NCBI GenBank assembly: GCA_020441735.1
Contig: JAGRLQ010000239.1
Coordinates: 1-38,401 of the forward strand
Direction of reading: 5' to 3'
DNA: 38,401 nucleotides
From: Nitratireductor sp.
GTDB lineage: Bacteria > Pseudomonadota > Alphaproteobacteria > Rhizobiales > Rhizobiaceae
Shown: piece by piece, positions 15,634 through 36,919 of the stretch
How positions within the stretch are numbered: position 1 is the first letter of the stretch
How the letters are laid out: the number at the start of each line of letters is the position of its first letter
The notes under the pieces: generated by a model
Databases searched by the model: none
The model's input: the letters and a program-made list of their open reading frames with translations, nothing else
Told to the model about the DNA's origin: nothing
Position numbers and translations under genes: made by a program

Positions 15634-15642
15634 CCGCTTACC

Positions 15643-19945: not shown

Positions 19946-20007
19946 GCCAGACACTAATTGCTAGTTCTGATTGTGCGACATGCAAATCACCTACCAAGGA
20001 GACAGAA

Positions 20008-20355
20008 ATGGAAGCCACGAATCAGGTCAAACCCTCTCGTTTGATCAGCAGAGTTGGGGGTACCGAGCACCGGATTATCCGAAAACTGGTCGATACCATC
20101 CTCAATGAAGGCCTCAAGATCGCGGTCTGGGACGAGGAAATGTTCCAGGAATGCGGGCCATCGAGCCAGCGGACGCGGATACTCGGCGCCATCGCCCATA
20201 CGGGAGAAAGCTACCTCTACCTCTGGCAGAACAACACCCGGCTTGGAATGTTCCAGCTGATCCACGGCAATGACGAGGATGTCATCTCCGATCTCTCCGA
20301 CAACCCGCTGTGCAATCGCATCTGGCAGGAAGTCAACGACGCGCTGGGGATGTGA
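20008..20355 (+). CDS. Hypothetical protein
   Basis: AAGGAG RBS; first gene after the promoter. Confidence 0.8.
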   Translation: MEATNQVKPSRLISRVGGTEHRIIRKLVDTILNEGLKIAVWDEEMFQECGPSSQRTRILGAIAHTGESYLYLWQNNTRLGMFQLIHGNDEDVISDLSDNPLCNRIWQEVNDALGM

Positions 20356-20356
20356 C

Positions 20357-20716
20357 ATGGGGCTGGATATCTTCATCGAGGGGCGCCGCACAATCTGGCG
20401 CGACCAACCAACCTATGATGACGGCACTCTCTGCGCAACGCATTACGATATTGCACGGCTGCACAACCACTATGACTTGCACGAGTGGATCGCGGTCGAG
20501 GTCATCGAGGGCGGATGCAATTCCGAGGCCATGTACCCGCTGGCAGAACAAGACCTGCGGCGCATCATCGACCAGATCAAGTCCAACTATTTTGGGGAGC
20601 CAAGCGAGGGAGAACGAACCCTTGATCCCAGACCTTTTCAATTCGCGCTCAACTGGCTGAACAAACCTTCCCCGGAAGGGATAAGCCGGTCGATCTACTA
20701 CTGCGCCAGCTTTTGA
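20357..20716 (+). CDS. Conserved phage hypothetical protein (MGLD...YY..SF type)
   Basis: Start reassigned to ATG 20357; characteristic termini. Confidence 0.75.
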   Translation: MGLDIFIEGRRTIWRDQPTYDDGTLCATHYDIARLHNHYDLHEWIAVEVIEGGCNSEAMYPLAEQDLRRIIDQIKSNYFGEPSEGERTLDPRPFQFALNWLNKPSPEGISRSIYYCASF

Positions 20717-20723
20717 GGTCACC

Positions 20724-20954
20724 ATGGACAAGATGGCTTTTCACAATGCCTGCCGGATCCTGCTCAATATCGATCTCGACGAGTTGGAACGTGCCGGCGT
20801 CATCCATCCCGGAAACAAAGACAGAGGCGGCTCGTCATGGAAGCGGTTCAATGACGAACCGCTGATCTTCATCCTCAAGCTACCGACAGAACGGTTCGAG
20901 AAACTGTGGCAGCTGATCGAGGAACGCCAGCCCGAGAAATGGAGGTCCAAATGA
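20724..20954 (+). CDS. Hypothetical protein
   Basis: GAGG RBS, 76 aa. Confidence 0.75.
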   Translation: MDKMAFHNACRILLNIDLDELERAGVIHPGNKDRGGSSWKRFNDEPLIFILKLPTERFEKLWQLIEERQPEKWRSK

Positions 20955-21226
20955 CCAAGGAACTCTCAACCCACGCCCATGTCGACATCGCCCAGGAGTT
21001 CATTGCCAAGCTGTGGTGCTACGTGGCGCTGCCGGATGGCACCCTCGGCATCGCTGTTGCCAACGAACGCGGCTACACGCCGGTCAGTCCGTTCTGGTTC
21101 AAGAGCGAAACCTACGACGAGGCCGACCGGGAAGCCGACCGCCTCAACCGCAAGCATCTCGATCTCGAACCCGACATCGCGCTGCGCATCATCACCACTA
21201 CCATGAGACTAGGAGAAGCGGCATGA
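20951..21226 (+). CDS. Hypothetical protein
   Basis: GGAGG RBS, ATGA overlap. Confidence 0.75.
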   Translation: MTKELSTHAHVDIAQEFIAKLWCYVALPDGTLGIAVANERGYTPVSPFWFKSETYDEADREADRLNRKHLDLEPDIALRIITTTMRLGEAA

Positions 21227-21963
21227 CGCCAGAACAAAATGCACATCACGAACAATCCATCTTGGATCATCTGAATGGCAACTCTGCTGACAAATGTTTT
21301 GGTCGGCTGGCAGCATCTACGGCATTCGAAGCGATGGAGAAATGGCTCCACTCCGAGCATTCTGGCGGGACCGAGATCGTTGACATCCTGTTTGCCTTCT
21401 CAAAACTCAACACGACCTTGATGGGTTCGATGATCGGCCAGATACCCTTCGGCAGCAAGGTAGCCATGCAGTCCTTCGTCGACACACTGGAAACGGCCAA
21501 CAGGAATATGCTGGAAACCCACATTGAATTTGTTCGCAAGCAGCATGGCATATCACCACTAAAGCAGGGAGCAAGGCCATTCTGCCGTGATCTCGAACGG
21601 ATCACTGCCGAGGTAAAACTGTCGCTCGATCACGTGACTTCGCGGTGCATCCTTGAAGCACCGATCCAACCCTTCGACACCGCCAGGCAGTTTCTTGAAA
21701 GCCTGGATGCGCTTTCCGACGCCGAGGACATGGTAACCATATGGCGGATCGACACGGTGATGGGACGAGCGGAGAACGTCACCGAGGAAGTGGCTGCCGC
21801 GGCTATCGAGATGGGTAATTTCACTCCCGAGGACGAGGACCAGTTGAACACCTACATCAAGGAATCGGCTGCATGGCAGGATTTCCTCCGGGAAACTGTC
21901 GAACATCGATCCGACCATGAGGAACACAGCACCCTCAACCGGGCGCAACAGGGAACCGCATGA
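21223..21963 (+). CDS. Hypothetical protein
   Basis: AGGAG RBS, ATGA overlap, start MTPEQ. Confidence 0.75.
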   Translation: MTPEQNAHHEQSILDHLNGNSADKCFGRLAASTAFEAMEKWLHSEHSGGTEIVDILFAFSKLNTTLMGSMIGQIPFGSKVAMQSFVDTLETANRNMLETHIEFVRKQHGISPLKQGARPFCRDLERITAEVKLSLDHVTSRCILEAPIQPFDTARQFLESLDALSDAEDMVTIWRIDTVMGRAENVTEEVAAAAIEMGNFTPEDEDQLNTYIKESAAWQDFLRETVEHRSDHEEHSTLNRAQQGTA

Positions 21964-22139
21964 AACCACCGTTGCGAAAGACGAAAGGGATTGGCCGACC
22001 ACCGGCCTATCCCGACCCTGCCGAAGATGACGACACGGGCGACATCTTCGACATCCGAACCTTCGACAAATTCATGAACCATGGAGGCGTATCCGATGCC
22101 GCTCGAAAACAACGATCTGAAATCGACGATCAGGAATAA
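21960..22139 (+). CDS. Possible 59-aa hypothetical protein (below the ORF-track cutoff)
   Basis: ATGA overlap; MKPPLRK...DDQE fills the gap. Confidence 0.4.
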   Translation: MKPPLRKTKGIGRPPAYPDPAEDDDTGDIFDIRTFDKFMNHGGVSDAARKQRSEIDDQE

Positions 22140-22665
22140 CATCAACCGGCTCGTTGCCGAGAAGCGGTTCACCAATGCGGTGCTGGCGCTCTCGATGACA
22201 CCGGGGGAAAGCCATATCGGCAGGATGCGCAGGGGCGAGCGGGATATCGGCCTCGATGCTCTGGAACAGTTTGCGAAGGTACTCGAGGTCAGCGTCAACG
22301 ATCTGGTCACGCCTTATGAGACCGAGCACCCGGTGCAACTGGTCTGCCGGGCCTGCGGCAGTACCGAACTCTGGTTTGATGCCAAGGCCAGATGGAATGC
22401 GGCCATCCAGGACTTCGAGCTCGCGGAAGTCATGCAGGGCGAATACTGCGAGGCCTGCGATGGTCAGTGCAGCATCGAACGCAAACCCATCGATCCGACC
22501 GAGAAGCGCTACCAGTGCCAGAATTGCGATGAAGTGATGCCGGCCGAGAAGCTGCAATCCATCGACGATATCGAACGCCGCCGTGCGCATTGGGGACCAG
22601 GCGACCAGGTGCCGGACGGCCAATGTCCGAACTGCGGCTCTCTGGCCTTCGAAATGGATGGATAA
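22096..22665 (+). CDS. XRE-type HTH fused to multiple CxxC zinc ribbons
   Basis: IGRMRRGERDIGLDALEQFAKVLEV plus four CxxC pairs; GGAGG RBS. Confidence 0.75.
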   Translation: MPLENNDLKSTIRNNINRLVAEKRFTNAVLALSMTPGESHIGRMRRGERDIGLDALEQFAKVLEVSVNDLVTPYETEHPVQLVCRACGSTELWFDAKARWNAAIQDFELAEVMQGEYCEACDGQCSIERKPIDPTEKRYQCQNCDEVMPAEKLQSIDDIERRRAHWGPGDQVPDGQCPNCGSLAFEMDG

Positions 22666-22679
22666 CTTTGTGACCTGAT

Positions 22680-22756
22680 TGTCACTTTTTACTTTACAAT
22701 AGGGCAATTATGCGCCAAGTTGTAAATGTAAAACATACACCTACCACGGAGTGAAA
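22680..22756 (+). promoter_or_regulatory. 77-bp promoter/operator/leader module, copy 1
   Basis: Near-identical to 29534-29610 with the same spacing: TGTCACTTTTTACTTTACA-N13-GCGCCAAGTTGTAA.TGTAAA-N5-CACCTACCACGGAG.GAAA. Confidence 0.85.
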
Positions 22757-22758
22757 TC

Positions 22759-23481
22759 ATGCAAGACAAGAAGAAGATCATGGAGAAGGTGAGAGCCCTT
22801 CTCGCCAAGACCACCGCCAACGGCTGCACCGAGGAAGAAGCGCTCGCTGCGATGTCCATGGCCCGCAAGCTGATGGACAAGTACGGAGTGACCCAGGCCG
22901 AACTGGAGGCGGAGGCAGAAACCTTCGGCACGACCAGCTTCGCCCACCGCAAATGGGGAACCTTCTCCGTCGAGGATCGGCTTGGTTATTGGGTCGCCAG
23001 ATATTGCGACGTGAAGGTCTGGCGAAACACCAATACAGGCGAATGGTCGGCCCATGGTGGCGAACTCGACCGGGAGTTTTTCCAGTGGTTGCTTACCAGC
23101 CTCTCCCGCTTTGCAGAACAACATGCCGAATGGTGGCTGACGGACCAGCGCCGCAACGGCAATGCGCACTACGGCTGGCAGGACCAGAAGTCCTTCGTCA
23201 TCGGCTGTGTTGACCGGATCAACGAGCGGTTGAAGGAAGAATGGCGGAAACGCCAGAGCAATCTCAAGACCACCGATGGCAAGGCACTGGTCGTTCTCAA
23301 GATGCAGCTGGTTGAGCAGAGCTTCCACCGTCAGGTCGGCCTCAAGCTCCGCAGTTCAACGCGACGGGAAAACATGCGGTCATCATCCGGTTTCCATGCC
23401 GGACGGGCGACGGGCGACAAAGCCAGTCTCAACCGCCCGGTCAATGGCGGCGGCGGCATGCGCTCCATCGGTTCCAGATAG
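22759..23481 (+). CDS. DUF2786-domain protein
   Basis: KVRALLAKT..NGCTEEEA..AM..ARKLM.KYG N-terminus. Confidence 0.85.
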   Translation: MQDKKKIMEKVRALLAKTTANGCTEEEALAAMSMARKLMDKYGVTQAELEAEAETFGTTSFAHRKWGTFSVEDRLGYWVARYCDVKVWRNTNTGEWSAHGGELDREFFQWLLTSLSRFAEQHAEWWLTDQRRNGNAHYGWQDQKSFVIGCVDRINERLKEEWRKRQSNLKTTDGKALVVLKMQLVEQSFHRQVGLKLRSSTRRENMRSSSGFHAGRATGDKASLNRPVNGGGGMRSIGSR

Positions 23482-23583
23482 CAGGACTGCCCTTCACCCA
23501 GAATCCTGCTTAGCCCTGCCGGTGTCTCCGTGGTGGTTGACCGGCAGGGCGACCCCTCACCACCACGGACAGGAAATCACACG

Positions 23584-23757
23584 ATGCGCAACCATAATCC
23601 CTTTCACGAACAGGACGAGAAGGCCCGCCGCTTTGAGCTCATTGCGGTGGCCGCTCTAACCATCGTTGCAATCGGCTCGATTGCTCTCGGCCTCTATCTC
23701 GATCGCCAGCAGGCAGCGAAAGACGCCGACACGACCTATCTGGAGCTTCGCCCATGA
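23584..23757 (+). CDS. Small single-TM protein
   Basis: AGGA RBS, one hydrophobic helix, ATGA overlap with the next gene. Confidence 0.65.
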   Translation: MRNHNPFHEQDEKARRFELIAVAALTIVAIGSIALGLYLDRQQAAKDADTTYLELRP

Positions 23758-24254
23758 ACGGCGAGCTCAAGACGTTTCAACCGGCCAAGCTGGAACCAAT
23801 GACCGAGGACGAGTTTCTGGCGAAGTTCTCCAGCATGCACCCCGCGATCTCGGAGGAACAGTGGCGGGCGCAGTACCGCCGCATGCAGGAGGAAATCATC
23901 TGGCTCAACGACGAGTATCAGGTGAACATCCGCCAGCGCTCCCTCCAGCTGGGGGATGATACCTATTGGGATCATCTCTCCATCAAGCGGGTGGACAGAG
24001 CGCCGGTCCATGACTGGCGCGATCTGCAAGCCATCAAGAACAAGCTCTACGGCCCGGAATACGAGGCCGTCGAACTCTATCCGGCCGAGAGCCGGCTCGG
24101 AGACACCGCGAACCAGTATCACCTGTGGGTGCTGGTCGATGAAAGCGGTGATCCTGTCCAGATACCGGTCGGCTGGTTCGGTGACCGTCTGGTCCTCTCA
24201 ACATCCAGCCATGGCGCGGTTCAGCGCCCACCTGCCAACGGAGAAACCTCATGA
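23754..24254 (+). CDS. Conserved phage protein (HLS...Q.IKN...AVE.YP...YHLW family), paralogue 1
   Basis: Motif shared with 28709-29155. Confidence 0.8.
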   Translation: MNGELKTFQPAKLEPMTEDEFLAKFSSMHPAISEEQWRAQYRRMQEEIIWLNDEYQVNIRQRSLQLGDDTYWDHLSIKRVDRAPVHDWRDLQAIKNKLYGPEYEAVELYPAESRLGDTANQYHLWVLVDESGDPVQIPVGWFGDRLVLSTSSHGAVQRPPANGETS

Positions 24255-24598
24255 CACCCCAAGAAATCGATGCCGTCATCGGCGGCAACGTGCGCAAGCA
24301 CCGCACCCTTCGCGGCATTACCCAGGAACAGCTGGCGGACGCATGCAACGTGTCCTTTCAGCAGATCCAGAAATACGAGAACGGCAAGAACCGGATGGGC
24401 GGCAGCCGCCTTGTCCAGATTGCCAACGCGCTCACCTGCACGATGGATGACCTGTTCGACGGCACCCCGACCGGATCGCCCAATCCGAGCAGCATCCCGG
24501 AGCTCTTGCAGATTCCGATTGCCGCTATCGAAAAGCTCGGCAGCACACGGGGCATGACGGTTCTCGCCATCCCGGACAAGTTCGCGGAGGGGCTGTAA
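24251..24598 (+). CDS. XRE-family HTH regulator
   Basis: TQEQLA...VSFQQIQKYENGKNR. Confidence 0.9.
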   Translation: MTPQEIDAVIGGNVRKHRTLRGITQEQLADACNVSFQQIQKYENGKNRMGGSRLVQIANALTCTMDDLFDGTPTGSPNPSSIPELLQIPIAAIEKLGSTRGMTVLAIPDKFAEGL

Positions 24599-24599
24599 G

Positions 24600-25070
24600 A
24601 TGAACGACACCCTGCTGATAAACCACATGGTGTTGATCGATCCATTCGAGAACAAGGTCGATTCGATCATCCTCGACAGGCCAGAGATTGACGGGAACCT
24701 GCTGCGGCACAACATCGGATGCAATACGCTGGCCCGGGTGCAGTTGAACAATTCGATCGACCTATGGGTTGATGATGAGGGCCTGTTCGCGCAGGACCAG
24801 CAGTTTTTCGCCATCGGCTCCTATCCAAACCCAATTGCAGGCAAGGGGCTCGTCACAGGGCTCTCTGGGCCGGACACGGTGTCTCTCCCTTCCACCATCA
24901 CGGCAACCGATATCGCGCGTTTCGTGCGGTTCATAGGCGACCAGTACGATCTCGAAAACTTCATCGAGATGGGCCACATTCAACGCCCGCATTCGGGAAT
25001 GATGGACCCCGACACCGGGGAGGTCAGTGTCTTTTGGCAGTGGACCGCGCAGCCAAGAGAGGATGCCTGA
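24600..25070 (+). CDS. DUF3846-like protein
   Basis: LWVDDEGL...PIAG motif. Confidence 0.65.
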   Translation: MNDTLLINHMVLIDPFENKVDSIILDRPEIDGNLLRHNIGCNTLARVQLNNSIDLWVDDEGLFAQDQQFFAIGSYPNPIAGKGLVTGLSGPDTVSLPSTITATDIARFVRFIGDQYDLENFIEMGHIQRPHSGMMDPDTGEVSVFWQWTAQPREDA

Positions 25071-25141
25071 AAAGAAACGGGCCGCTCTCGCGACCCGTTT
25101 TGCCATCACCTACCAAGTGAAGCGATCAGAAGATCGTGGCC
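25068..25141 (-). ncRNA. Predicted antisense sRNA carrying UUGGUAGGUGAU
   Basis: Promoter TTGACT-N17-TATTCA (25175-25147); GCCA/UGGC stem closing two hairpins; terminator ACGGGUCGC-GAGA-GCGGCCCGU-UUCUUUU; ends approximate. Confidence 0.7.
25070..25101. terminator. Probably bidirectional intrinsic terminator
   Basis: AAACGGGCCGC-TCTC-GCGACCCGTTT with T runs on both strands. Confidence 0.75.
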
Positions 25142-25207
25142 TCCTGTGAATAGGTTGGAGATACGGCAAAGTCAAGGCGATTTGCAATTGCCAGCGGCCA
25201 ATCCAAT

Positions 25208-25226
25208 TGTAAAGTTACAGTTTACA
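25208..25226. promoter_or_regulatory. 19-bp operator
   Basis: TGTAAAGTTACAGTTTACA upstream of the 25251 gene. Confidence 0.7.
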
Positions 25227-25250
25227 TTTCAAGATTAGACGAGGAAGTTC

Positions 25251-25850
25251 ATGGCTATTTACACATCATCCTGGTTCACTCCATTGCCACCGGAAGTGCA
25301 GCGGATCGGGATTTCTCGCGGCACTCCCAGAAATATGAAAGCAGGCTTCCGGGTATACCGGGAACTGGCACCGGGAAACTACTTCAAGTCGGCAACCATC
25401 TACAATTACCGGGATCAATACATGGCGGGATTGCTTGCCATGGACCCGATTGCTGTCCGGGATCGCATCCTCGGTCTCCAGGGAGACGCCGAACACTGCG
25501 CACTGCTCTGCTACGAACACCCGCAGAAAGAAGATGATTGGTGTCACCGCGGCTACGTGGCTGCCTGGCTGTTCGACAATCTCAAGGAAGTGGTTTGCGA
25601 GTGGGGCATGGAACAGGCCGGCCACGGCTGGCAGCATCCCAAAATCCCAAAGCAGTTTCGCACCTTTGAGGTCGCAGAGCCGATCAATGTCACGCCGTAT
25701 ATCGGCGCCACCGTCGAGCACAATGACGAAACCTGGACGGTTCTCGATCGCAGCGAAACCTATCCTGACCAGGCCATCATCTCGAACGGCAAGGATCAAC
25801 GATACATCTCCGAAGCCGTGCTCAAGAAGCGGTTCAATCCGGTCAGATGA
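25251..25850 (+). CDS. DUF488-like protein
   Basis: IYTS...ISRG.P...LAP...LLCYE...WCHR motifs. Confidence 0.75.
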   Translation: MAIYTSSWFTPLPPEVQRIGISRGTPRNMKAGFRVYRELAPGNYFKSATIYNYRDQYMAGLLAMDPIAVRDRILGLQGDAEHCALLCYEHPQKEDDWCHRGYVAAWLFDNLKEVVCEWGMEQAGHGWQHPKIPKQFRTFEVAEPINVTPYIGATVEHNDETWTVLDRSETYPDQAIISNGKDQRYISEAVLKKRFNPVR

Positions 25851-25883
25851 CAATCAACACCACCTACCAACAGGAGAGCAATC

Positions 25884-27222: not shown

Positions 27223-27424
27223 AGCCGCCCCGACCAATCCAATCTACACGCCGCCCGACTATGGCGTGAACGAGGGGGAGCTTTGCAAGCGCGACGGCTG
27301 CTGTGGTCGCATCATCATTGAGCAGGAACCTTGCCACTGCGCAGCAATGAGAATGCCTCCTTGCAGTGCTTGTGAGCAAGCCTGGTTCGAATGTTCAGAC
27401 TGCGGATGGAGGTCGGACGAATGA
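27212..27424 (+). CDS. Cys-rich zinc-binding small protein
   Basis: C..DGC.G...C.C....PPCSAC...C..CGW. Confidence 0.7.
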   Translation: MMPRAAPTNPIYTPPDYGVNEGELCKRDGCCGRIIIEQEPCHCAAMRMPPCSACEQAWFECSDCGWRSDE

Positions 27425-28182: not shown

Positions 28183-28712
28183 GTCCTCTACGCAAAATCA
28201 CCAGTGAAGAAATGTTCGCTGCCAACGAGGCCTGGGGCGCCAACTGCGGACCAGCTGCAATTGCGGCAGTGCTCGGCATGACGCTCGACCAGGTTCGCCC
28301 GTTCATGGGCGATTTCGAAAAGAAGCATTACACGAACCCGACCCTCATGTGGGACACGCTGCGCCGGATCGGAGCGCTGTTCTCATATCGCGGTGGCGAG
28401 CTCGGCCGGAACAACTGGCCGATCTATGGCTTTACCCGCATCCAATGGGAAGGCCCATGGACACGACCAGGCGTTCCGAAGGTTGCCAGATACCGGCACA
28501 CTCACTGGATCGGGGTTAATGCGATCGACAGCAACAACATCGGCATCTTCGACTGCAACGCGACCGGCAACGGCACCGGATGGACCCCTCTCACGGATTG
28601 GGAAAACATCCTCGTTCCCTGGATCATCGAGGAACTAGTCCCGCGAGCCAACGGCGAATGGCACATCACCCATGCCGTCGAGATCAAGCTGCCATGGAGG
28701 TTCAAGGGATGA
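28179..28712 (+). CDS. Peptidase C39-like (Cys/His/Asp) protein
   Basis: NCGPAAIAAVL...HW...IFD pattern. Confidence 0.55.
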   Translation: MSPLRKITSEEMFAANEAWGANCGPAAIAAVLGMTLDQVRPFMGDFEKKHYTNPTLMWDTLRRIGALFSYRGGELGRNNWPIYGFTRIQWEGPWTRPGVPKVARYRHTHWIGVNAIDSNNIGIFDCNATGNGTGWTPLTDWENILVPWIIEELVPRANGEWHITHAVEIKLPWRFKG

Positions 28713-29155
28713 TCGACCCTATCGATAGCCTGCCAAGATGGGAGCGACGGCAAGTCCTCGAACTGGAAAGGCAACGCCGTAAGTCGGGGAAGTGGCCGGA
28801 CTGGAGGATCATCAATCTCCGGCAACAACAAACCCGCAGATGGTCACGATCATTTGCCAGGGCTCATGTGAACGATGTCTTTGCAGTCTTGGATCGAACT
28901 CTGGAATCCGGTGTCCGCCATCTCATGATTACCAGCGCGTCATGTACACGCCCGACCTTCTACGAAATGCAGAGGATCAAAAACGAGATCGCTGGGGAAG
29001 ATGCTGTTGCTGTCGAAGTGTACCCGAAGCAGAGCGACATATTCGACGGGGCTGACGCCTATCATCTGTGGGTCTTGCCGGATGGCCTCGGCTTCTCAAT
29101 TGGCGACCCGGTTCGGCTGGAAAAACACGGGGCTGCCAGCGTGGCAACCAGGTAG
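28709..29155 (+). CDS. Conserved phage protein, paralogue 2 of 23754-24254
   Basis: RHL...MQRIKNEIAGEDAVAVEVYP...YHLWVL; GGAGG RBS. Confidence 0.8.
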   Translation: MIDPIDSLPRWERRQVLELERQRRKSGKWPDWRIINLRQQQTRRWSRSFARAHVNDVFAVLDRTLESGVRHLMITSASCTRPTFYEMQRIKNEIAGEDAVAVEVYPKQSDIFDGADAYHLWVLPDGLGFSIGDPVRLEKHGAASVATR

Positions 29156-29258: not shown

Positions 29259-29334
29259 TGGTTGCGGGGGCCGGACTCGAACCGGCGACCTCCAGGTTAT
29301 GAGCCTGGCGCGCTACCGTCTGCGCTACCCCACT
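29259..29334 (-). tRNA. tRNA-Met(CAU), initiator-like, with encoded CCA
   Basis: AGTGGGG-TA-GCGC-AGACGGTA-GCGC-G-CCAGG-CTCATAA-CCTGG-AGGTC-GCCGG-TTCGAGT-CCGGC-CCCCGCA-ACCA; 76-nt cloverleaf. Confidence 0.93.
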
Positions 29335-29513: not shown

Positions 29514-29533
29514 AGCGGCAAATATTGCCAATC

Positions 29534-29610
29534 TGTCACTTTTTACTTTACAGTACAGGTAAAACGCGCCAAGTTGTAAGTGTAAATTATCCACCTACCA
29601 CGGAGCGAAA
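29534..29610 (+). promoter_or_regulatory. 77-bp promoter/operator/leader module, copy 2
   Basis: Repeat of 22680-22756. Confidence 0.85.
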
Positions 29611-29862: not shown

Positions 29863-29888
29863 CCACCTACCAATTGGAGAAACCTACC

Positions 29889-30221
29889 ATGCTGGCAACC
29901 AACATCAAGAATCTGCCCGAAGGCGAATACATGACCGAGCACGGATACTCGCAGAGCTACCCGTGGAAAGTCATCGCGCGGACGCCCGCCACAGCCACGC
30001 TCGCACGTGTCCACGTTGAGAGAGATCCCGAGTGGCAGCCGGAGTTCCATCCGGGCGGTTTCGCTGCCCATTGCTCAAATCAGTCTGACCAGACCTGGCT
30101 GTTTGGCAGATTGGACGAAGCCGACACAATAACCGTTCGCAAGACGAAGTACGGCTGGCGGCGCAAGGGGGTCGGTTTCACCGAGCAGATGGCCCGCCAC
30201 TTCTACGACTACAATTTCTGA
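29889..30221 (+). CDS. Conserved phage hypothetical protein
   Basis: GGAG RBS; F.PGGFAAHC.NQ..Q.W and FYDYNF terminus. Confidence 0.8.
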   Translation: MLATNIKNLPEGEYMTEHGYSQSYPWKVIARTPATATLARVHVERDPEWQPEFHPGGFAAHCSNQSDQTWLFGRLDEADTITVRKTKYGWRRKGVGFTEQMARHFYDYNF

Positions 30222-30238
30222 ACAGGAGACCACCTACC

Positions 30239-30571
30239 ATGAAGCAGAAGATCCTCGAAATCCGCGACCGCGCCACGTTCATCTCGGTTCTGGCAACCGA
30301 ATTATGGACAGGCAAGACCACCATCACCGAACGCTACTATCTCGAACGGGCTGGCTATGGAGACGGCGGCAGCCGGTATATCATCATGACCCGCCTCGAA
30401 GGACTGGAGACACAATGCGATCCCTACAAGTGGCCCAGCTTTCGAACGATGAAGGCCGCACACGTCTACATCCTCCAGCATTGGGATGAACTCGAATCCG
30501 GTGATGTCGTCGATGTTGAGTTTATCAACAGCGAAAGCAAGGAACCGAAGAAGTCGGAGCGGTTCCTATGA
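30239..30571 (+). CDS. Conserved phage hypothetical protein
   Basis: AGGAG RBS; LEIRDRATFI...DPY.W..RTM..AH..I..HWDEL.SGDVVDVEFI. Confidence 0.8.
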   Translation: MKQKILEIRDRATFISVLATELWTGKTTITERYYLERAGYGDGGSRYIIMTRLEGLETQCDPYKWPSFRTMKAAHVYILQHWDELESGDVVDVEFINSESKEPKKSERFL

Positions 30572-30771
30572 GCAAGTTCACCATCTCCGTCGAGACCGAC
30601 AACGCAGCCTTTTCCGATGACTGGCGCAATGCCATCGGCAACATCCTGCATCATTCCTACAAGCACCTGTTCAACCATGGCGAGGCCGGGCGGGAACGGG
30701 GTGTGCGGTCACACAATCTACGCGACCTGAACGGCAACACGGTCGGCACCATCGAAATCCGGGAGGATTGA
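30568..30771 (+). CDS. Conserved phage hypothetical protein
   Basis: TDNAAF...LRD.NGNTVG; ATGA overlap. Confidence 0.75.
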   Translation: MSKFTISVETDNAAFSDDWRNAIGNILHHSYKHLFNHGEAGRERGVRSHNLRDLNGNTVGTIEIRED

Positions 30772-30772
30772 G

Positions 30773-31441
30773 ATGGCCGAAGCTGTAATTGCCAAAGCCC
30801 GCGATGAGGCAAAGGTCAACGTTGCCATACGCCGTCGCCTACGGGAGCGCGGCTGGGACAAATGGGCGATATCCGCCATCAAGGATCAGGCCAGCCTCAA
30901 AACCTTCGACAAGCTGCCGTTCATCATCAACGGCGGCTGCTATTGTAAACACGAGATGGGGCGCGGCGGCTACAGCTTCGCCCGTCTCACGAAGTGGGAT
31001 TTCAAAACTGACACCGGCTTGTTCTCGTTCTTCTGCGGTATGTCTATTGAAAGCAGATCGCGCGATGAATGTCTGACCTTCGAACAGTACCGGGATGGCC
31101 CGATGCGCGAGGGAGACCTGCTTACGATGACGCCCCAGCAGTTCGATTTTTGGTTCCGCAAAAACACCGAGAAGATTGCCGAACAGGTTCGTGAACGCTG
31201 GCCGGAAGGCGTCGATGACAACAATCTTGGGGAATACCTCGGAACCATGATCGGTGTCGGCGGCTCTAACGGACCAGATTCACCATCCATCGAACGCCGC
31301 AATCTTCAATGGTCTTGTCGATGGTCATCTTTGGGAGATGTGGATCGAACGCTGACAGTGAAAGGCCCCCAGCTGATTGCCAAGTTCCGTGAGACGCACG
31401 GTATTCTCGATTCATCAAACCCGCAGCTTACCCTGTTCTAA
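30773..31441 (+). CDS. Hypothetical protein ending in QLTLF
   Basis: GGAGG RBS; 222 aa. Confidence 0.75.
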   Translation: MAEAVIAKARDEAKVNVAIRRRLRERGWDKWAISAIKDQASLKTFDKLPFIINGGCYCKHEMGRGGYSFARLTKWDFKTDTGLFSFFCGMSIESRSRDECLTFEQYRDGPMREGDLLTMTPQQFDFWFRKNTEKIAEQVRERWPEGVDDNNLGEYLGTMIGVGGSNGPDSPSIERRNLQWSCRWSSLGDVDRTLTVKGPQLIAKFRETHGILDSSNPQLTLF

Positions 31442-31465
31442 CCACCTACCAAGTGAGCACCTACC

Positions 31466-32335
31466 ATGACACAGCACATTCCGATCTCCCAGATCACCCC
31501 GAACCCGAACCAGCCCCGGAAGCACTTCGACAAGGCAAAACTACGCCAGCTGGCCGACACCATCGCCGCCCGTGGGTTGATCCAGCCGATCACCGTCCGT
31601 CCGCTCGGTGGTAGGCCGATGCGCTATATGATTGTTGCCGGTGAACGCAGATGGCGAGCACACAAGCTGCTGGAGAAAGAGGGCAAGGCCGAAACCATCC
31701 GGGCCAATGTCGAGAAGATGGGGAAGGACGAGATGGCGCTGCAAGCCATCATCGAGAACAAGGATCGCGAGGACATCAACCCAATTGAGCAGGCGCTTGC
31801 CTATCAGGACATGATTGACCGCGGCTGGACTGTCGAGAAGCTGGCAGCCGAGCTCGGCATGAAGCAACCCCGCCGAATCTCCGACCGGCTTCTCCTGCTT
31901 GGCTGCTGCGATACCATCCGGCAACTGGTCGCCTCGGGCCAGTTCTCCACCGATGTTGCCTATCACGTGGCCGGTTTGCCGGAGCATGAACAGATGCTCG
32001 TGCTCAAGGCCTTCAACGCCGGCAAGACCGACATCGGCTATCTCAAGGCCATGGTCCAGGCGTTGATCGACAAGCGCAACCAGTCCGGCATGTTCGGGGA
32101 TGATGACCAGCCATCACCGGAAGGCGGCAGGCAACTCAAGTCGATGGAGAACCGCATCGAGCAGATCGTCAAAGACCTGTCGCGCGGCTGGAAGGATGGC
32201 GAATGCGTCATCGCCAAGTCCGTCGATCCCAACAGGGCAGGGCGGATAGCCGAGCAGTTGCAGCTGATCGCCAAGACGGCAAACCAGATGGCCCGCGCCA
32301 TGACGCAGGCCCAGGCAGCAAGGGAGTTGTTCTGA
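31466..32335 (+). CDS. parB: ParB/Spo0J-family partition protein
   Basis: PNPNQPRKHF, GLIQPITVR, IVAGERRWRA, ENKDREDINPIEQA and an HTH. Confidence 0.92.
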   Translation: MTQHIPISQITPNPNQPRKHFDKAKLRQLADTIAARGLIQPITVRPLGGRPMRYMIVAGERRWRAHKLLEKEGKAETIRANVEKMGKDEMALQAIIENKDREDINPIEQALAYQDMIDRGWTVEKLAAELGMKQPRRISDRLLLLGCCDTIRQLVASGQFSTDVAYHVAGLPEHEQMLVLKAFNAGKTDIGYLKAMVQALIDKRNQSGMFGDDDQPSPEGGRQLKSMENRIEQIVKDLSRGWKDGECVIAKSVDPNRAGRIAEQLQLIAKTANQMARAMTQAQAARELF

Positions 32336-32430
32336 TGAAGTTAAATGCGGGTAATTTGCTTCATCGACTTAGAGAAGTGTCCACGAATACCGTGTGACCA
32401 TCTGCAATACCAAAACAGCAGGAGGTCAGG

Positions 32431-32637
32431 ATGACGCAGATCACCCCTATTTGTTTTACAGTCAACGAGTTCCTTTCCTGGTCCCGCATTTCGCGGGCGA
32501 CTTTCTACCGCGAGGTTGCTGCCGGCAACATAGTTGTTCGAAAACTCGGAAAGCGGTCCCTCATTGATCGTGAGGAAGCGGAACGCTGGTTTAACGCGTT
32601 GCCTGAAAGGTCACCAGTCACCCCAGCCGCGACCTGA
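32431..32637 (+). CDS. Excisionase/AlpA-like HTH protein
   Basis: FTVNEF...ISRATFYREV..G.I..RKLGKRSLI; AGGAGG RBS. Confidence 0.8.
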   Translation: MTQITPICFTVNEFLSWSRISRATFYREVAAGNIVVRKLGKRSLIDREEAERWFNALPERSPVTPAAT

Positions 32638-32803
32638 CGAAGCAGTCCTTCGCTTCCAGCAGCTTGCGCAGGCCGGCACTCTTTTCCGGGCCATCCGGCA
32701 ATTCCGCATCCAGCTTGTGGGCCAGTTCCGAAAGGGGCTGGCTCACTGCCTTGAGAGGATCCGGCAAATGCTCGAAGGCGAAGTATTTCAGAATCGGGCT
32801 CAT
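32618..32803 (-). CDS. Small conserved helical-hairpin phage protein
   Basis: F.FEHLP..L..VS.P...LA...LPDGPEKSAGLRKLLEAKDCFVR; GGAG RBS. Confidence 0.8.
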   Translation of the reverse strand: MSPILKYFAFEHLPDPLKAVSQPLSELAHKLDAELPDGPEKSAGLRKLLEAKDCFVRSRLG

Positions 32804-32997
32804 GATGGTTCTCCGGTTGCAGTTTCGACTTGCGGACGAAGCCGAAGCCTCTTTTCGGTGTTGGGTGTGATGTAGATGGCCCTGCCATTGGTGACGAAAT
32901 TGTTGTCCTCGACAGCCACCGGCTTGCCTTCCTCATCCTCGCCAATGATGGTTCCCGGTTCCCTGACAAAGATGTTGGACGCGCCAAACCAGGTCAC
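32800..32997 (-). CDS. Hypothetical protein, 65 aa
   Basis: GGAGG RBS, GTG start, GTGA and ATGA overlaps. Confidence 0.6.
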   Translation of the reverse strand: MTWFGASNIFVREPGTIIGEDEEGKPVAVEDNNFVTNGRAIYITPNTEKRLRLRPQVETATGEPS

Positions 32998-33413
32998 AAT
33001 CCAGCCTCCCGGTCGTCGATATTTTTGAGGACGATCCGGTAGGCCTTTGGCGTGATAGCCGTTGCGCCGATCTTCTTGATTGCCTGATCGACCAGCGCGG
33101 GGATGTCGTTTTTCTTCGTGTCGTGCCATTCGCCATAGGGAAGCTCCGAGCCGCCGAGCTCGGTCAGCACTTCCTGGAGAACGCGCTTGGCAATCTTGTC
33201 GCCGTTGATCCAGTGGAAGAACAAAAGTGCCACCGGTGCCGGGTTTGCGAATTGCGCCCGCTGATACAGGTCATCGATGTTGGCAGCCCATCCCAGGTGG
33301 GCCAGGCCGGATTGTTTATCCAGGATACCGTAGACGGCCGCGCCGCCTGCCTGCCTGTGAGCCTTTCGGAACTTCGCCGGAAACCGGCAATTCTCAAGAA
33401 ATTCTGGGTTCAT
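32994..33413 (-). CDS. GIY-YIG/T5orf172-like protein (divergent)
   Basis: VYGI...HLGWA...Q..NP.PV.L pattern; ATG 33413. Confidence 0.5.
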   Translation of the reverse strand: MNPEFLENCRFPAKFRKAHRQAGGAAVYGILDKQSGLAHLGWAANIDDLYQRAQFANPAPVALLFFHWINGDKIAKRVLQEVLTELGGSELPYGEWHDTKKNDIPALVDQAIKKIGATAITPKAYRIVLKNIDDREAGL

Positions 33414-34099
33414 GTTTTCCTCGTTTTCAACACAAAGCTGCGATGGTTGCGGTAGATGCCGTGCTTCCGCTCTAGCCCGACATAGACTTGTCCGTAAGCC
33501 TTCTGGATCAGTTGCAGGAGATATTGCCGCGAGAAGGTTGGCCGGCGCTTGTTCCAGAAGCGCGAGCACTGATCGACGGTGGCGCCGTTTGCCCGCAGCA
33601 ACACGAGTTTACGCAGCCGGTGCCAGTCCTTCGACTGGATGAAGTTCAACAGATCAAAGGCCATCATCATCCGGTCGAGCGCCATCCGGTCATAGTGTTT
33701 CAGCTGGGTGTTGCCGTAATGCGATGGCATGCCGGAAAGCAGCCGATCCAGCTGAATGTCGTAGAGTTCCTTGTCGCTACGGGTGACCTCGGGCATGGTG
33801 GACCGCATGCTGTTGAGCATTGTCCGTTCACGATCGGGAATCTTGCGGTGGGTGCGCATGGCATCCTTGAACGCAAAATTCAGGACATCGTAGGGCGTGG
33901 GCTCTCGCTTGAACACGCTCTCCCGCGCCAGGTAATCGCAGGTCTTGAGATACTGAAATACCTCATCAGCCGCTTTGTCGACGACAAGCCCCTCATTTGG
34001 CCCCACAGCGGCGTTTTCGTTTCCAGAACCCTCTGCACCATCCGCAATCAGTTTCGCTCCATAGGCTGCTTTCTGGGCCATTGTGTCGCTGTTTTTCAT
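33410..34099 (-). CDS. Hypothetical protein at the late-regulator (Q-like) position
   Basis: 229 aa with a basic, helical C-terminus; function inferred from synteny only. Confidence 0.55.
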   Translation of the reverse strand: MKNSDTMAQKAAYGAKLIADGAEGSGNENAAVGPNEGLVVDKAADEVFQYLKTCDYLARESVFKREPTPYDVLNFAFKDAMRTHRKIPDRERTMLNSMRSTMPEVTRSDKELYDIQLDRLLSGMPSHYGNTQLKHYDRMALDRMMMAFDLLNFIQSKDWHRLRKLVLLRANGATVDQCSRFWNKRRPTFSRQYLLQLIQKAYGQVYVGLERKHGIYRNHRSFVLKTRKT

Positions 34100-34683
34100 G
34101 TGATCCCCTGGAACATCTCGATTTCATCTCCGAAGGCAGTCCAGCCAGGCCGCTCCTGGCGGGAGAACAGATCAAGCCGGGTCGCCTTCGGCATCATCGC
34201 CTCGGCCACATCGTAGGCTTCATCCGGTTTGCGGCTGTGTTCGCGCAGCGGGCCGTCGAAGCAGCTGCGGATGCCACGGGTGGATTTTGGCTTCCCGCGT
34301 GTACCGATCAGGAAGGTCTCGTGCGAACTGCGCAACCGGTAGCCATATCCGAAGCCGAGCTTCCCGTGCTTGGTGATTTTCCGCCAGACGCCATGGGTCG
34401 AATATTTGAAGCCCCAGGCATCCATCACTTCGAGACCTTGCGGCAACATCGGGTTCGTAACCCAGAGCCAGAGCAGGCAATCCTTCTGACAAAGGTGCTG
34501 GACGGGCAGCCGCTTGATTTCCTCGAGCGTCATGACCCGATAGTGCTTGGTAGCGCCTTTCGCTTCCCCCTTCGACGAGTAGTGTTTGAAGCGCCACGGA
34601 TTGTCCGCCATCACGAAATCGAAATGGTAGAGCGGGATGTTGGGAATAGGGCCGTTCGACAGCCGCAGGTCAAGCATTGCCAT
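34096..34683 (-). CDS. MT-A70-family adenine methyltransferase
   Basis: AD.PW, LWLWVTNP, WGF.Y, HSRKP and LDLFSRQ.RPGW..FGDE motifs. Confidence 0.92.
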   Translation of the reverse strand: MAMLDLRLSNGPIPNIPLYHFDFVMADNPWRFKHYSSKGEAKGATKHYRVMTLEEIKRLPVQHLCQKDCLLWLWVTNPMLPQGLEVMDAWGFKYSTHGVWRKITKHGKLGFGYGYRLRSSHETFLIGTRGKPKSTRGIRSCFDGPLREHSRKPDEAYDVAEAMMPKATRLDLFSRQERPGWTAFGDEIEMFQGIT

Positions 34684-35231
34684 CAGGGCGTCTTTCGCCT
34701 CCTGACGGCTTCAAGCGGATGCACGTTGTCGGAGTTATCCCCAGTCTGTGGATCGGCAGTGCCATAATCTCCCATCTCATAATTGGATAGTTCACTATCC
34801 ATATGATTGTGATTGTGATTGTGACTGGCATGCTTCCGCTCTGCTAATGGATTGCTTGTGGCGAGCGCTGTTTTCTTGTTTTTCAATGCCTTGGCGGCAT
34901 GTGCCTTTTCCGACCGCTGTTTTCTTGCCTGATATTTCTCTTTTGCCTCCAGCCATTCGGCCTTCAATCGCTTCTGGTAGTACCGGCCCCGCAACAGGAT
35001 GCAGAACTCGTCGAGGATGGGCTTGATGAGGCGCAAGAACATTGCCTCATCGCATCGCAGGCGGCGCATGATCCAGTCCGGTTCGGCGGGAATGGTGCAT
35101 TCCGGCGAGCGCCACATGAGCATGAGGATGGACAGGTAGGCGCCGCGTTCCTCGAATGAGAGATGGTGGGTATCCAGTTCGAAGTCCGATACCCACAGGG
35201 GCATGAACGGAAGTTTGTTATTCGGGGCCAT
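34683..35231 (-). CDS. DUF1376 (YdaU-like) replication initiation protein
   Basis: LPFMPLWVSDF..DT.HLS.EERGAYL.IL..MW; ATG 35231. Confidence 0.88.
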   Translation of the reverse strand: MAPNNKLPFMPLWVSDFELDTHHLSFEERGAYLSILMLMWRSPECTIPAEPDWIMRRLRCDEAMFLRLIKPILDEFCILLRGRYYQKRLKAEWLEAKEKYQARKQRSEKAHAAKALKNKKTALATSNPLAERKHASHNHNHNHMDSELSNYEMGDYGTADPQTGDNSDNVHPLEAVRRRKTP

Positions 35232-35595
35232 GGTAGGTGCAGCTTTCGATGTTGCACCGCTCGCGTTCCAACGCAGCAATTTCCTGATTGATCTGGTCCA
35301 GCCGCCAGCCCTGCAACGCCGCAGGCATCCATTCCGGTTCCCGTGCATAGCAGGCCTTGAGGAAAGGCGGGCCATAAGCAGCGATCAAAGACATCAGATG
35401 ATCACGCTGTGGGGAAGATCGCCGCTGCATCCAATTGTCTACGGTGGCAGCAGGAATGCCGGTCAGGGCCTCGACATTGTGGCCGACATTGTTGGGGTAG
35501 CTCTTGCGCAGATACGCAAGCATGCCCTCCAGATCAAACAGGGTTGCGTGTGCATGGCCGGAACCTTGCGGTGGCAAATTGGTAGTCTTGTTCAT
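35218..35595 (-). CDS. CII-position HTH regulator
   Basis: TGIPAATVDNW....SSP...HL..LI.AYGP.FL; alternative in-frame GTG start at 35745 with GGAGG. Confidence 0.65.
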   Translation of the reverse strand: MNKTTNLPPQGSGHAHATLFDLEGMLAYLRKSYPNNVGHNVEALTGIPAATVDNWMQRRSSPQRDHLMSLIAAYGPPFLKACYAREPEWMPAALQGWRLDQINQEIAALERERCNIESCTYHGPE

Positions 35596-35737
35596 TGCTC
35601 GTTTCCTACGTTTGGGGGGTCGGAAACGGGCAGTTTGAATTGCCCCACGCAATACGGATGGCCGGGCATGGCATGGCAAAGCATCGGCGCTCTGACACAG
35701 CGCCTCGTAGGTGACATCGAGAGGAATGGAGAACGGG

Positions 35738-35956
35738 TCAGGCACGATCCGCCTCCAACTTCTCCGCACGGGAAAGCTGGCCTGGTGAATACCGGCCTTT
35801 CAGACGCACCGAGAAATCCTTTGCCAAATCTCTCGGAATGCCGCGAACACGCCAATGACTCACCGCCGACACTGTGCGACCATAGAATGCAGCCACACGG
35901 CTATTGCCGCCCAGCCGGTCAATCCCATCATTCGCGCAATTGGTAGGCTTACCCAT
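35738..35956 (-). CDS. cro: Cro-like repressor
   Basis: IDRLGG...VA...G.TVSAVSHWR..GIP; divergent from cI. Confidence 0.8.
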   Translation of the reverse strand: MGKPTNCANDGIDRLGGNSRVAAFYGRTVSAVSHWRVRGIPRDLAKDFSVRLKGRYSPGQLSRAEKLEADRA

Positions 35957-35987
35957 AGTCTCGGCCAATATCCGGCACCCCCCAGAG

Positions 35988-36037
35988 TGTCAACTTAAAA
36001 CTTACGAACCGGAGACGTTTGTAACTTTAAAAGTACA
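35988..36037. promoter_or_regulatory. OR-like operators and cro promoter
   Basis: TGTCAACTTAAAACTTACG (35988-36006, TTGACA on minus) and the 18-bp TGTAACTTTAAAAGTACA (36020-36037). Confidence 0.7.
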
Positions 36038-36071
36038 TTGCACTGATAGTTGCAACCTATAGAAAACCCTC

Positions 36072-36692
36072 ATGGAAAGAGGTTATACAGCAAAGGCGAT
36101 CGAGGCAGCCCGCCGAAAGCGTGGCTTGACGAAGGCCGAACTCTCCCGTCGCGTCAACGTATCCCGGATGACGATAACCGTCTGGGAACGTGGGACTGCT
36201 TTTCCCAAGCAGGAGAACCTGGACGCCCTGGCGGATGCGCTACAGGTCGAACGCCGTTCGTTGCTGGTCCCTGACGATGCGGTTGGCTTCCATCAGCAAC
36301 CCATTGCCGGCAGGCTGGCTCGCGATCAATGGCTCGGCCAACGATCCAAGAATAACTACGGATTCGCGCCGATTTCCTTTGATCATCGCTTTCCCACAGA
36401 CGCGCAGAGCTTCTATGTCATGGATGACAATTCCGGTGGCGACCGATGCCCCCATGAAATGGTGCTGCATGTCGTTTGCACGGATTCAATGGAGCCGCTT
36501 TCCAACGATCAACTAGTCATTGTTGAGCGCAAAAAGAACGATCTGACGGAAACGACATTACGGCAATTGCGGCGAATGGGCGACAGCCTGGCGCTTCTCT
36601 GGCTCGACGATGAAGCCGAATCACCCGAACCGCTGACGCAAGAAACCTCCATAGAAGGCGTGGTCATCGCAGGCTGGAAACAGTTCGCTTAA
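36072..36692 (+). CDS. cI: CI-like repressor (HTH plus degenerate S24 domain)
   Basis: GLTKAELSRRVNVSRMTITVWERG HTH; S24-like C-terminus ending IEGVVI. Confidence 0.85.
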   Translation: MERGYTAKAIEAARRKRGLTKAELSRRVNVSRMTITVWERGTAFPKQENLDALADALQVERRSLLVPDDAVGFHQQPIAGRLARDQWLGQRSKNNYGFAPISFDHRFPTDAQSFYVMDDNSGGDRCPHEMVLHVVCTDSMEPLSNDQLVIVERKKNDLTETTLRQLRRMGDSLALLWLDDEAESPEPLTQETSIEGVVIAGWKQFA

Positions 36693-36730
36693 GCGGCTTT
36701 CCCCCTGCTTTTCCCCAACCACGCGAAAAC

Positions 36731-36749
36731 TGTAAAATATAAATTGACA
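36731..36749 (+). promoter_or_regulatory. OL/PL-like operator containing TTGACA
   Basis: TGTAAAATATAAATTGACA upstream of the recombination operon. Confidence 0.7.
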
Positions 36750-36919
36750 CGCTCCCCCCTGAAACGATAGGTGTCGTTTTACAGGCGGCACCTGTTTCAC
36801 ATGACATATTCGGTTTGGCATCAAGCAGCCGCCTGGATGCCAAGTCTGCGACCGGCCGGCTCCTTCCCCCGGGTCTCCTCCGCGACCGGCCGGTCGCATC
36901 ACCTACCAGGAGCAATGTC

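What the first reader, a model, noticed from the sequence alone, without database searches (positions are those of the whole stretch)
19988..36908. CACCTACCA element fixed at RBS/start codons on both strands
Seen: 11 exact copies, against about 0.3 expected for a random 9-mer on both strands of 38.4 kb (uniform composition), and none found in the late operon. Ten copies are in the sense orientation of a gene. They sit just 5' of the SD (20008, 22759, 25884, 29611, 29889, 36920) or supply the A of ATG (30239, 31466, minus-strand 35231). parB has two tandem copies. Variants occur at 29881 (AACCTACCA-TG), 24229 (CACCTGCCA), 23558 and 21196. Inference: strict sense orientation and placement imply RNA-level translational control. 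Alternatives are an RNA-binding-protein site or a microhomology for shuffling gene cassettes.
Basis: partly seen in the sequence, partly recalled or inferred. Interest (0 to 1): 0.85.

Follow-up and report, generated by a model that had tools for sequence, protein, structure and literature searches.

The report
Phage small RNA tagging early genes
This temperate-type phage puts the same nine-letter tag at the start of nine early genes and carries the mirror image of that tag inside a predicted 72-base RNA gene, and tag and mirror change together in related phages, so one small RNA likely silences these genes together by base pairing (no transcript or repression has been observed).

Summary
There are 11 exact CACCTACCA copies (shuffle mean 0.07), and 10 sit sense at the starts of 9 early genes. 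Read on the minus strand it is the seed of an unannotated ~72-nt RNA gene: TTGACT-17-TATTCA promoter, three-way junction, terminator. A ~91%-identical phage keeps the cassette with structure-preserving changes. Related alphaproteobacterial (pro)phages, including ones in Mesorhizobium and Pseudaminobacter, carry similar cassettes, mostly at the same place. Their seeds fall into three letter classes. The window's tags match only its own seed (10 against 0) and L076's only its own (14 against 0). Best reading: a trans-acting antisense RNA that blocks translation at the head of every early operon, c4/CI-like in logic. It matches no Rfam family, and it has 9-14 targets where c4 has one operon. Against: no RNA data, some tagged phages show no cassette in the DNA held, and activation is not excluded. 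The scan reported this architecture before on other DNA, but not this sequence family.

The parts
25070..25141 (-). Predicted small RNA gene, ~72 nt: three-way junction (P1 25137-25140/25102-25105, P2 25123-25136, P3 25106-25120) followed by an intrinsic terminator
   Evidence: Fold -33.1 kcal/mol, z -3.5, 0 of 200 shuffles as stable; pair table; kept in a relative with structure-preserving changes; 5' end inferred from the promoter
25107..25117 (-). Seed CUUGGUAGGUG in the P3 hairpin (loop GGU open, 3' part in the stem); complement of the tags
   Evidence: unchanged in runs X10, X11, X12
25147..25175 (-). Sigma70-type promoter of the RNA: -35 TTGACT (25175-25170), 17 nt, -10 TATTCA (25152-25147)
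   Evidence: Sequence; 8 of 12 consensus matches, below the cut-off of the scan, which did not list it; both boxes unchanged and 3 changes in the spacer in the relative
25070..25100 (-). Terminator: 11-bp stem with GAGA tetraloop, then CUUUU; probably also ends the + strand operon 22759-25070
   Evidence: not listed by the scan; two-way use is inference
19988..19996 (+). Tag before the SD of gene 20008 (first gene after promoter TTGACA 19940); 13 contiguous pairs with the RNA
   Evidence: unchanged in X10
22738..22746 (+). Tag before the SD of gene 22759 (DUF2786/DUF7168), head of an operon; 9 pairs
   Evidence: orthologues tagged in L174, L076, L089
25861..25869 (+). Tag before the SD of gene 25884 (DUF5131); 10 pairs
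29592..29600 (+). Tag before the SD of gene 29611, head of an operon; 9 pairs
   Evidence: orthologue tagged in L175
29864..29889 (+). Tag before the SD of gene 29889 (10 pairs) plus variant AACCTACCA (29881-29889) that supplies the A of ATG
30231..30239 (+). Tag between SD and start of gene 30239; supplies the A of ATG
31443..31466 (+). Two tags at parB (31443-31451, 14 contiguous pairs covering the GTGAG SD; 31458-31466 supplies the A of ATG)
   Evidence: ParB orthologues tagged in L175, L299, L076
35231..35239 (-). Tag supplying the A of ATG of the DUF1376 replication-initiator-like gene (34683-35231)
36900..36908 (+). Tag before the SD of the Gp157/Gam-like gene 36920, ahead of recT; 12 pairs
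24229..24237 (+). Variant CACCTGCCA before the SD of HTH gene 24251; the change gives a G.U pair with the seed; likely target
25208..25219 (.). Perfect palindrome TGTAAAGTTACA, candidate repressor operator over the divergent promoter of the DUF488 gene; a separate motif from the tag
   Evidence: operator role inferred
25251..25850 (+). DUF488-N3a-like gene, divergent neighbour of the RNA gene and the marker that led to related phages
   Evidence: Pfam E 4.5e-5, below the cut-off

Best explanation
The ten sense copies are likely target sites for a phage-encoded small RNA predicted at 25141-25070 on the minus strand, which would pair through its UUGGUAGGUG seed with the ribosome-binding regions of nine early genes and block their translation. 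Shown by sequence and comparison: the tags, their placement, the complementary copy inside a promoter-hairpin-terminator cassette, its conservation, and matching letter changes in seed and tags across phages. Inferred: transcription, pairing and repression. The open UGGU loop would start pairing and open P3, giving 9-14 bp that end 0-5 nt before the SD (7 sites) or cover the A of AUG (3 exact sites and 1 variant). All six early transcription units that I infer carry at least one tag; cI and the late genes carry none. Blocking the lead gene would likely silence whole operons by polarity. On timing I favour the lysogen (about 60:40 over a shut-off late in lytic growth). The RNA promoter lies outside the candidate operator that covers the back-to-back DUF488 promoter, so it would stay on while CI represses early promoters. 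It would then remove leaky early transcripts and be titrated out by the many tagged mRNAs on induction. Seed classes would act as immunity specificities.
For: (1) Placement. (2) Cassette anatomy. In duplex energy with the seed region, the top 5 of 59 gene starts are tagged genes. (3) Close relative (runs X10-X12, one study): the cassette is kept although the adjacent gene 24600 is deleted. Of 6 substitutions inside the RNA, 2 form a U-A to C-G double change (25120/25106), 2 turn A-U into G.U (25118, 25100), 1 is unpaired (25122), and 1 in P1 (25137) is matched by a 2-nt insertion (read by eye). The G.U pairs work only on the minus strand. (4) 6 of 22 DUF488-linked viral loci have an enriched CCT(A/G)CCA start motif, against 0 of 80 loci of another early protein family. 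Five of those 6 hold an antisense cassette, 4 of them 130-170 nt upstream of the DUF488 gene as here and L076 about 490 nt upstream. (5) Covariation (sites with >=9-nt complement, at starts/all): window DNA 10/10 with its own seed, 0/0 with 7 of the 8 other seeds and 0/3 with that of L076. L076 DNA 14/18 with its own UGGCAGG seed and 0/0 with all 8 others. Mesorhizobium DNA 10/12 with its own class and 0/1 with the window's. Orthologous DUF2786 and ParB genes keep a tag with each phage's own letters. (6) Strand: the antisense strand folds better in 10 of 11 cassettes, and GNRA/UUCG loops number 10 against 0. The seed hairpin is 94% paired with 8 double changes, 0 of 500 shuffles. (7) Precedent: the C4 b' loop partly occludes ribosome-binding sites and P1/P7 specificity rests on a 4-nt difference (passages of PMC5320573).
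Against: Nothing here shows transcription or repression. Covariation alone would also follow if all copies were sites for one protein; only the strand and structure evidence separates the two. Tags without a cassette in the DNA held: L092 (16 CCTACCA sites in a record 51% complete; my first candidate there proved to be a sense tag), L179, L190/L194/L217, L197/L198. L089 targets match the window's seed as well as their own (4/4 against 4/5), and L074's one clear tag differs from its seed at -1/-2. An unchanged 11-nt seed at 8.8% divergence is expected by chance about a third of the time. Three of the 14 rows were found with a hairpin-shaped pattern, and one (L092) is not a cassette. A promoter-like 17-nt spacing was seen in only 6 of 11 cassettes, with starts set by eye. 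Part of the seed is paired in P3. The three-way junction is not shared by all members (L076 and L093 fold as one long hairpin).
Confidence: 0.68

Rival explanations
1. Same RNA and same pairing, but it activates: the C-rich tag weakly folds back on the GGAG SD, and the RNA frees it.
For: In isolated leaders the SD is predicted mostly paired (unpaired probability 0.06-0.42 in 9 of 10 leaders), and the tag's CC/CCU can pair with GG/AGG.
Against: These folds are weak (-2.4 to -5.6 kcal/mol). At 3 exact sites and 1 variant the tag lies between SD and AUG and includes the A of AUG, and the parB site pairs over the SD itself; a duplex there cannot help initiation.
Confidence: 0.1
2. The tag is a protein site, either an asymmetric DNA site like mycobacteriophage stoperators or an RNA site for a phage translational repressor, and the 25107 copy is one more site.
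For: All + strand copies, 25107 included, share one orientation. Asymmetric oriented DNA sites exist (PMC9283540 abstract). The window encodes three HTH proteins. Some tagged phages show no cassette.
Against: It does not explain why the odd copy sits in a hairpin whose partner arm changes with it, nor the promoter, tetraloops and U-tail on the opposite strand. A separate palindromic operator family already marks the promoters.
Confidence: 0.12
3. The tag is a phage-specific translation enhancer or RBS idiom spread by copying of leaders, with no trans partner.
For: C/A-rich sequence before the SD is a known enhancer type (recalled, GcvB targets). Two leaders (22680, 29534) are 83% identical over 77 nt.
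Against: Only 2 of the leaders are duplicates. It gives no reason for letter-exact turnover of all tags in step with one intergenic antisense hairpin. An enhancer role could coexist with the RNA model.
Confidence: 0.06
4. The tag is a microhomology for shuffling gene cassettes.
For: The region is mosaic and the phage encodes RecT.
Against: 0 of 12 joints between the window and the 39,982-nt relative end inside a tag; the nearest is 31433, 10 nt before one. The gene gains and losses among them fall at stop/start boundaries.
Confidence: 0.03

Closest known systems
C4 antisense RNA of phages P1 and P7 (Rfam RF01695)
   Same: Phage-encoded ~75-nt RNA with three stems; loop sequences pair with ribosome-binding regions; specificity changes together with the targets (passages of PMC5320573).
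   Different: No match to RF01695 or any Rfam family. One seed instead of a' plus b'. Own promoter and terminator instead of RNase P processing from a precursor. 9-14 targets over all early operons instead of the icd-ant operon (C4's target operon is recalled).
CI RNA of satellite phage P4
   Same: Antisense immunity RNA that shuts off the phage's own replication genes in the lysogen (passage of PMC4825925).
   Different: CI is processed from the transcript that it regulates and pairs with two flanking sites to cause termination. Here the gene is free-standing and the sites are dispersed at translation starts.
Start-associated sequences (SAS/ESAS) of cluster K mycobacteriophages
   Same: Asymmetric motif at the starts of 13-19 non-structural genes, often behind inverted-repeat promoters; role unknown, an RNA or protein partner was left open (passages of PMC3203893, PMC11373665, PMC12699233).
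   Different: Unrelated sequence; SAS contains the SD, this tag abuts it. A candidate antisense hairpin was found in 1 of 3 cluster K genome stretches tested.
sar (P22), OOP and aQ (lambda), 24B_1, VpdS, PreS
   Same: Phage small RNAs acting by pairing (sections 2 and 4 of review PMC12197685).
   Different: In the two sections read, each acts on one phage gene in cis or on host and mixed targets; none is described with a dedicated tag repeated at many own start sites.
Stoperators of cluster A mycobacteriophages
   Same: Many asymmetric sites across a temperate phage genome, used to silence it (abstract of PMC9283540).
   Different: DNA sites for the repressor protein; no antisense RNA.

Membership tests
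C4 antisense RNA (RF01695) | Match to the covariance model | tested here: not met
   No C4 hit in the window at E<=5 or in the 161-nt cassette at E<=10; best genome hit is 23 bits on another contig, cut-off 45; none in 7 related loci
C4 antisense RNA (RF01695) | Three-stem structure | tested here: inconclusive
   Three-way junction in the window, L072, L073, L299; a single long hairpin in L076 and L093
C4 antisense RNA (RF01695) | Two recognition loops (a' and b') with paired target sites | tested here: not met
   Only the P3 seed has repeated complements; no second enriched word pairs with P2
C4 antisense RNA (RF01695) | RNase P processing from a longer precursor | not testable with these tools
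   Promoter ends about 5 nt before P1, which suggests a primary transcript; no RNA data
Trans-acting base-pairing sRNA (mechanistic class) | Free-standing gene with promoter, stable fold and intrinsic terminator, no conserved ORF | tested here: met
   the 30-36-codon minus-strand frames that start in the seed are hit by a 2-nt insertion in the relative
Trans-acting base-pairing sRNA (mechanistic class) | Conserved seed complementary to the initiation regions of several mRNAs, with covariation | tested here: met
   exceptions L074, L089
Trans-acting base-pairing sRNA (mechanistic class) | Expression and seed-dependent regulation; Hfq use | not testable with these tools
   Needs RNA data and reporters
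Stoperator-type DNA sites | Bound by the phage immunity repressor | not testable with these tools
   A different, palindromic motif marks the promoters
Cluster K SAS | Consensus GGGATAGGAGCCC containing the SD | tested here: not met
   The tag is CACCTACCA and lies beside the SD

The most novel reading that the evidence does not exclude
A family of alphaproteobacterial temperate phages runs a second, RNA-only immunity layer. One small RNA silences every early operon through a purpose-built address tag at translation starts, and seed and 5-14 tags are rewritten together to make new specificities. The same logic may explain other unexplained start-associated phage motifs, such as the cluster K mycobacteriophage SAS, where Adephagia's single reverse copy forms an intergenic hairpin with an anti-SAS loop.
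Probability: 0.4. Interest if true: 0.88.

Novelty: new variant of a known kind. Interest (0 to 1): 0.74.

Why it matters
The phage antisense RNAs described in the papers I read control one gene or operon. Here one RNA appears to address the whole early programme (replication initiator, recombination, ParB, accessory genes) through a repeated tag, and natural variants supply the compensatory pairs. Cultured lysogen candidates exist (Mesorhizobium sp. WSM3862 and WSM3860, Pseudaminobacter salicylatoxidans DSM 6986), so expression, direction of control and cross-immunity between seed classes can be tested directly. It also gives a concrete, testable hypothesis for start-associated motifs whose role has been open since 2011, and a natural set of orthogonal RNA-leader pairs for alphaproteobacteria.

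Tried and rejected
Expression: no RNA holder listed, so nothing was learnt. Exact-seed scan of viral contigs with the window's own 15-mer: 55 hits, all looked like chance, at most 3 tags each. Tandem-tag pattern: 2 hits in low-GC repetitive DNA. Cassette DNA against 60 related genomes: only short terminator-like matches. Tag+GGAG in 300 family genomes: at most 3 per genome, none clustered. A loose pattern in 400 order genomes was too unspecific to use. Single-protein locus searches found nothing. Two named phages sharing DUF5131 or TerL have no enriched tag. The scan for more CCCCTGCCA-type phages gave 33 loci, with several copies only in the record of L076, so that class rests on one phage. 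Rows dropped: L338 (wrong coordinate); L092 as a cassette, so its column and its row are not an RNA, and one search leaves it out. One search used a pattern that missed the L179 tags. One search used the LSM family, which says nothing on Hfq. Resemblance of the tag to the 16S anti-SD (ATCACCT) was dropped because relatives read CCCCT/TCCCT. SAS side test: in ZoeJ the reverse copy is a sense SAS of leftward gene 40, and Pixie 30-61 kb has none. Print searches (listings only unless a paper is cited) showed no report of this RNA or tag; most subscription papers are outside that library, and I read no supplements, including those of PMC2864571, which may describe c4 homologues and their sites.
Full report
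Setting. The window is a whole 38,401-nt contig of a fragmented genome bin. Its genes mark a temperate-type myovirus: tail sheath, head, portal and terminase on the minus strand (1-19900); an early and accessory region on plus; an excisionase-like gene, a DUF1376 initiator-like gene, a cI-like gene (36072), Gp157 and RecT. No integrase was seen in the window. Related prophages lie in Mesorhizobium and Pseudaminobacter.

Observation. All 11 copies are real and far above chance. Ten end 0-17 nt before a start codon and tag nine genes. By my reading of promoters and gene order, the early region has six transcription units (20008-, 22759-, 25251-, 29611-, the leftward unit through 35231, and 36920-). 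Each has at least one tag; cI and the late genes have none. The rest of the bin has 10 scattered copies in 3.13 Mb, and 300 family genomes show no cluster.

The eleventh copy. 25107 is intergenic and has no ORF behind it on plus. On minus the sequence reads TTGACT, 17 nt, TATTCA, then a 72-nt stretch that folds into a three-way junction and an 11-bp GAGA-loop hairpin with a U-tail (z -3.5). The consensus scan did not list this promoter (8 of 12) or terminator. The complement of the tag lies in hairpin P3 with GGU in the loop. The ten exact sites can form 9-14 contiguous pairs with it. Rfam has no match.

Close relative. Run X10 holds a 39,982-nt contig, about 91% identical and syntenic. It has lost gene 24600 exactly up to 25070 and kept the cassette. 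In 25070-25297 it differs at 20 letters plus a 2-nt insertion (X11 and X12, same study, agree). None falls in the seed or in either promoter box, and three fall in the spacer; at this divergence that alone is not significant. Against the pair table, the six changes inside the RNA are one double change (U-A to C-G), two A-U to G.U, one unpaired, and one in P1 matched by the insertion. G.U tolerance holds only for the minus strand. The tag at 19988 is unchanged; the table was cut before the other tags. None of the 12 joints of this contig ends in a tag.

Distant relatives. An alignment of the neighbouring DUF488-like protein gave 22 viral loci. An unbiased word search found an enriched CCT(A/G)CCA start motif in 6 of 22, and in 0 of 80 loci of a second early protein family. 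Five of the 6 hold one odd copy inside an antisense hairpin-terminator cassette upstream of the DUF488 gene; L092 does not. A seed scan added L294, L297 and L299. L074, L077, L177 and L202 have the seed hairpin but few tags in the DNA held. In Mesorhizobium sp. WSM3862, 12 of 21 CCCTACCAC copies lie in 27 kb of prophage; in P. salicylatoxidans 5 of 13 lie in 43 kb.

Covariation. The seeds fall into three classes, whose complements are caCCTACCAa (window), (t/c)cCCTACCAc (most) and ccCCTGCCAa (L076). Counting every place with at least 9 nt of perfect complement, window DNA gives 10 start sites for its own seed and none for the 8 others. L076 DNA gives 14 for its own and none for the others. The common class cross-reacts within itself. 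L089 is the exception, matching both its own seed and the window's. DUF2786 and ParB orthologues at 30-49% identity keep a tag with their own phage's letters. Because a protein site would covary too, I tested the strand: the antisense strand folds better in 10 of 11 cassettes and carries all 10 GNRA/UUCG loops, and 6 of 11 have a 17-nt-spaced promoter 3-5 nt upstream (one mis-addressed row dropped). The seed stem is kept by double changes (three rows were selected by a hairpin pattern and one row is not a cassette).

Mechanism. Shown: tags, cassette, conservation, covariation. Inferred: the RNA is made, pairs from its loop, and blocks the 30S subunit at or next to SD and AUG, and polarity extends the block down each operon. 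Weak tag-SD folding leaves activation open for the upstream sites but not for those that include the A of AUG. A separate palindrome family (TGTAA..TTACA, 13 places with up to 2 mismatches, 12 of them intergenic) marks the early promoters and is the likelier CI operator. The perfect copy at 25208 covers the DUF488 promoter, whose -35 lies 12 nt from the RNA's -35, and leaves the RNA promoter free. I therefore favour a lysogen-state filter that is titrated out on induction. Late shut-off remains possible.

Results against. There is no expression evidence. Tags without a cassette occur in L092, L179, L190/L194/L217 and L197/L198, all partial. The TGCC class rests on one phage and the window class on one lineage.

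Comparison. It works like P1/P7 C4 and P4 CI (passages) but fails the C4 membership tests. For the papers: I read passages of PMC2864571, PMC3203893, PMC12699233, PMC11373665, PMC4825925 and PMC5320573, the abstract and sections 2 and 4 of PMC12197685, and the abstract of PMC9283540; no supplements. The GcvB enhancer and C4's icd-ant target are recalled. Eight earlier AI notes of this scan describe the same architecture in other phages; they are unchecked, my reading predates them, and look-ups by sequence, place and motif found none for this family.

Verdict. A real feature and a new variant of phage antisense control: confidence 0.68 for seed-mediated repression, 0.78 for an RNA-target pair of either sign, interest 0.74.

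Noticed in passing
L423:38683-38695 (Adephagia JF704105, 58682-58694): The single reverse SAS lies between genes 92 and 93, and the forward strand folds into a long hairpin with loop CUCCUAUCCC, complementary to the 16 sense SAS in the stretch held. Not seen in ZoeJ 27-57 kb or Pixie 30-61 kb.
   Followed up: partly
window 19893, 22687, 22721, 25208, 29493, 29541, 29575, 35988, 36020, 36026, 36738, 36772: Palindrome family TGTAA-NN-TTACA at the early promoters and around cI; candidate CI operators. Relatives show GTAACC..GGTTAC repeats at like places.
   Followed up: partly
window 22680-22756 and 29534-29610: Duplicated 77-nt promoter-operator-tag-SD leader, 83% identical.
   Followed up: partly
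window 35738-35956 (-): 72-codon ORF divergent from cI, Cro-like by position, possibly leaderless; it carries CCTACCAA in its first codons, a possible further target. No Pfam match.
   Followed up: partly
window 29259-29334 (-): tRNA-Met(CAT) gene on the strand opposite the early genes.
   Followed up: no
window 18359-19741 (-): DAM-like-phage1 plus GNAT-phage-like fusion ahead of a ParB-like gene and the terminase, a possible DNA-modification module; two more methyltransferases at 27421 and 34096.
   Followed up: no
window 23754-24254 and 28709-29155: Two paralogues of phrog_7839; the second is absent from the X10 relative.
   Followed up: no
L418:4857-5300 (-): A tagged gene of the Mesorhizobium prophage encodes a ROS/MucR regulator.
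   Followed up: no
L338, L365, L303, L336: Long hairpins with the same UGUGGUAG loop, two followed by terminators, but with 1-2 tags in the DNA held; possible further members.
   Followed up: no
L116, L099, L144, L150: Other enriched start-proximal words in unrelated viral loci (for example CGGAAGAAA, 9 copies, in L116); not checked for antisense cassettes.
   Followed up: no
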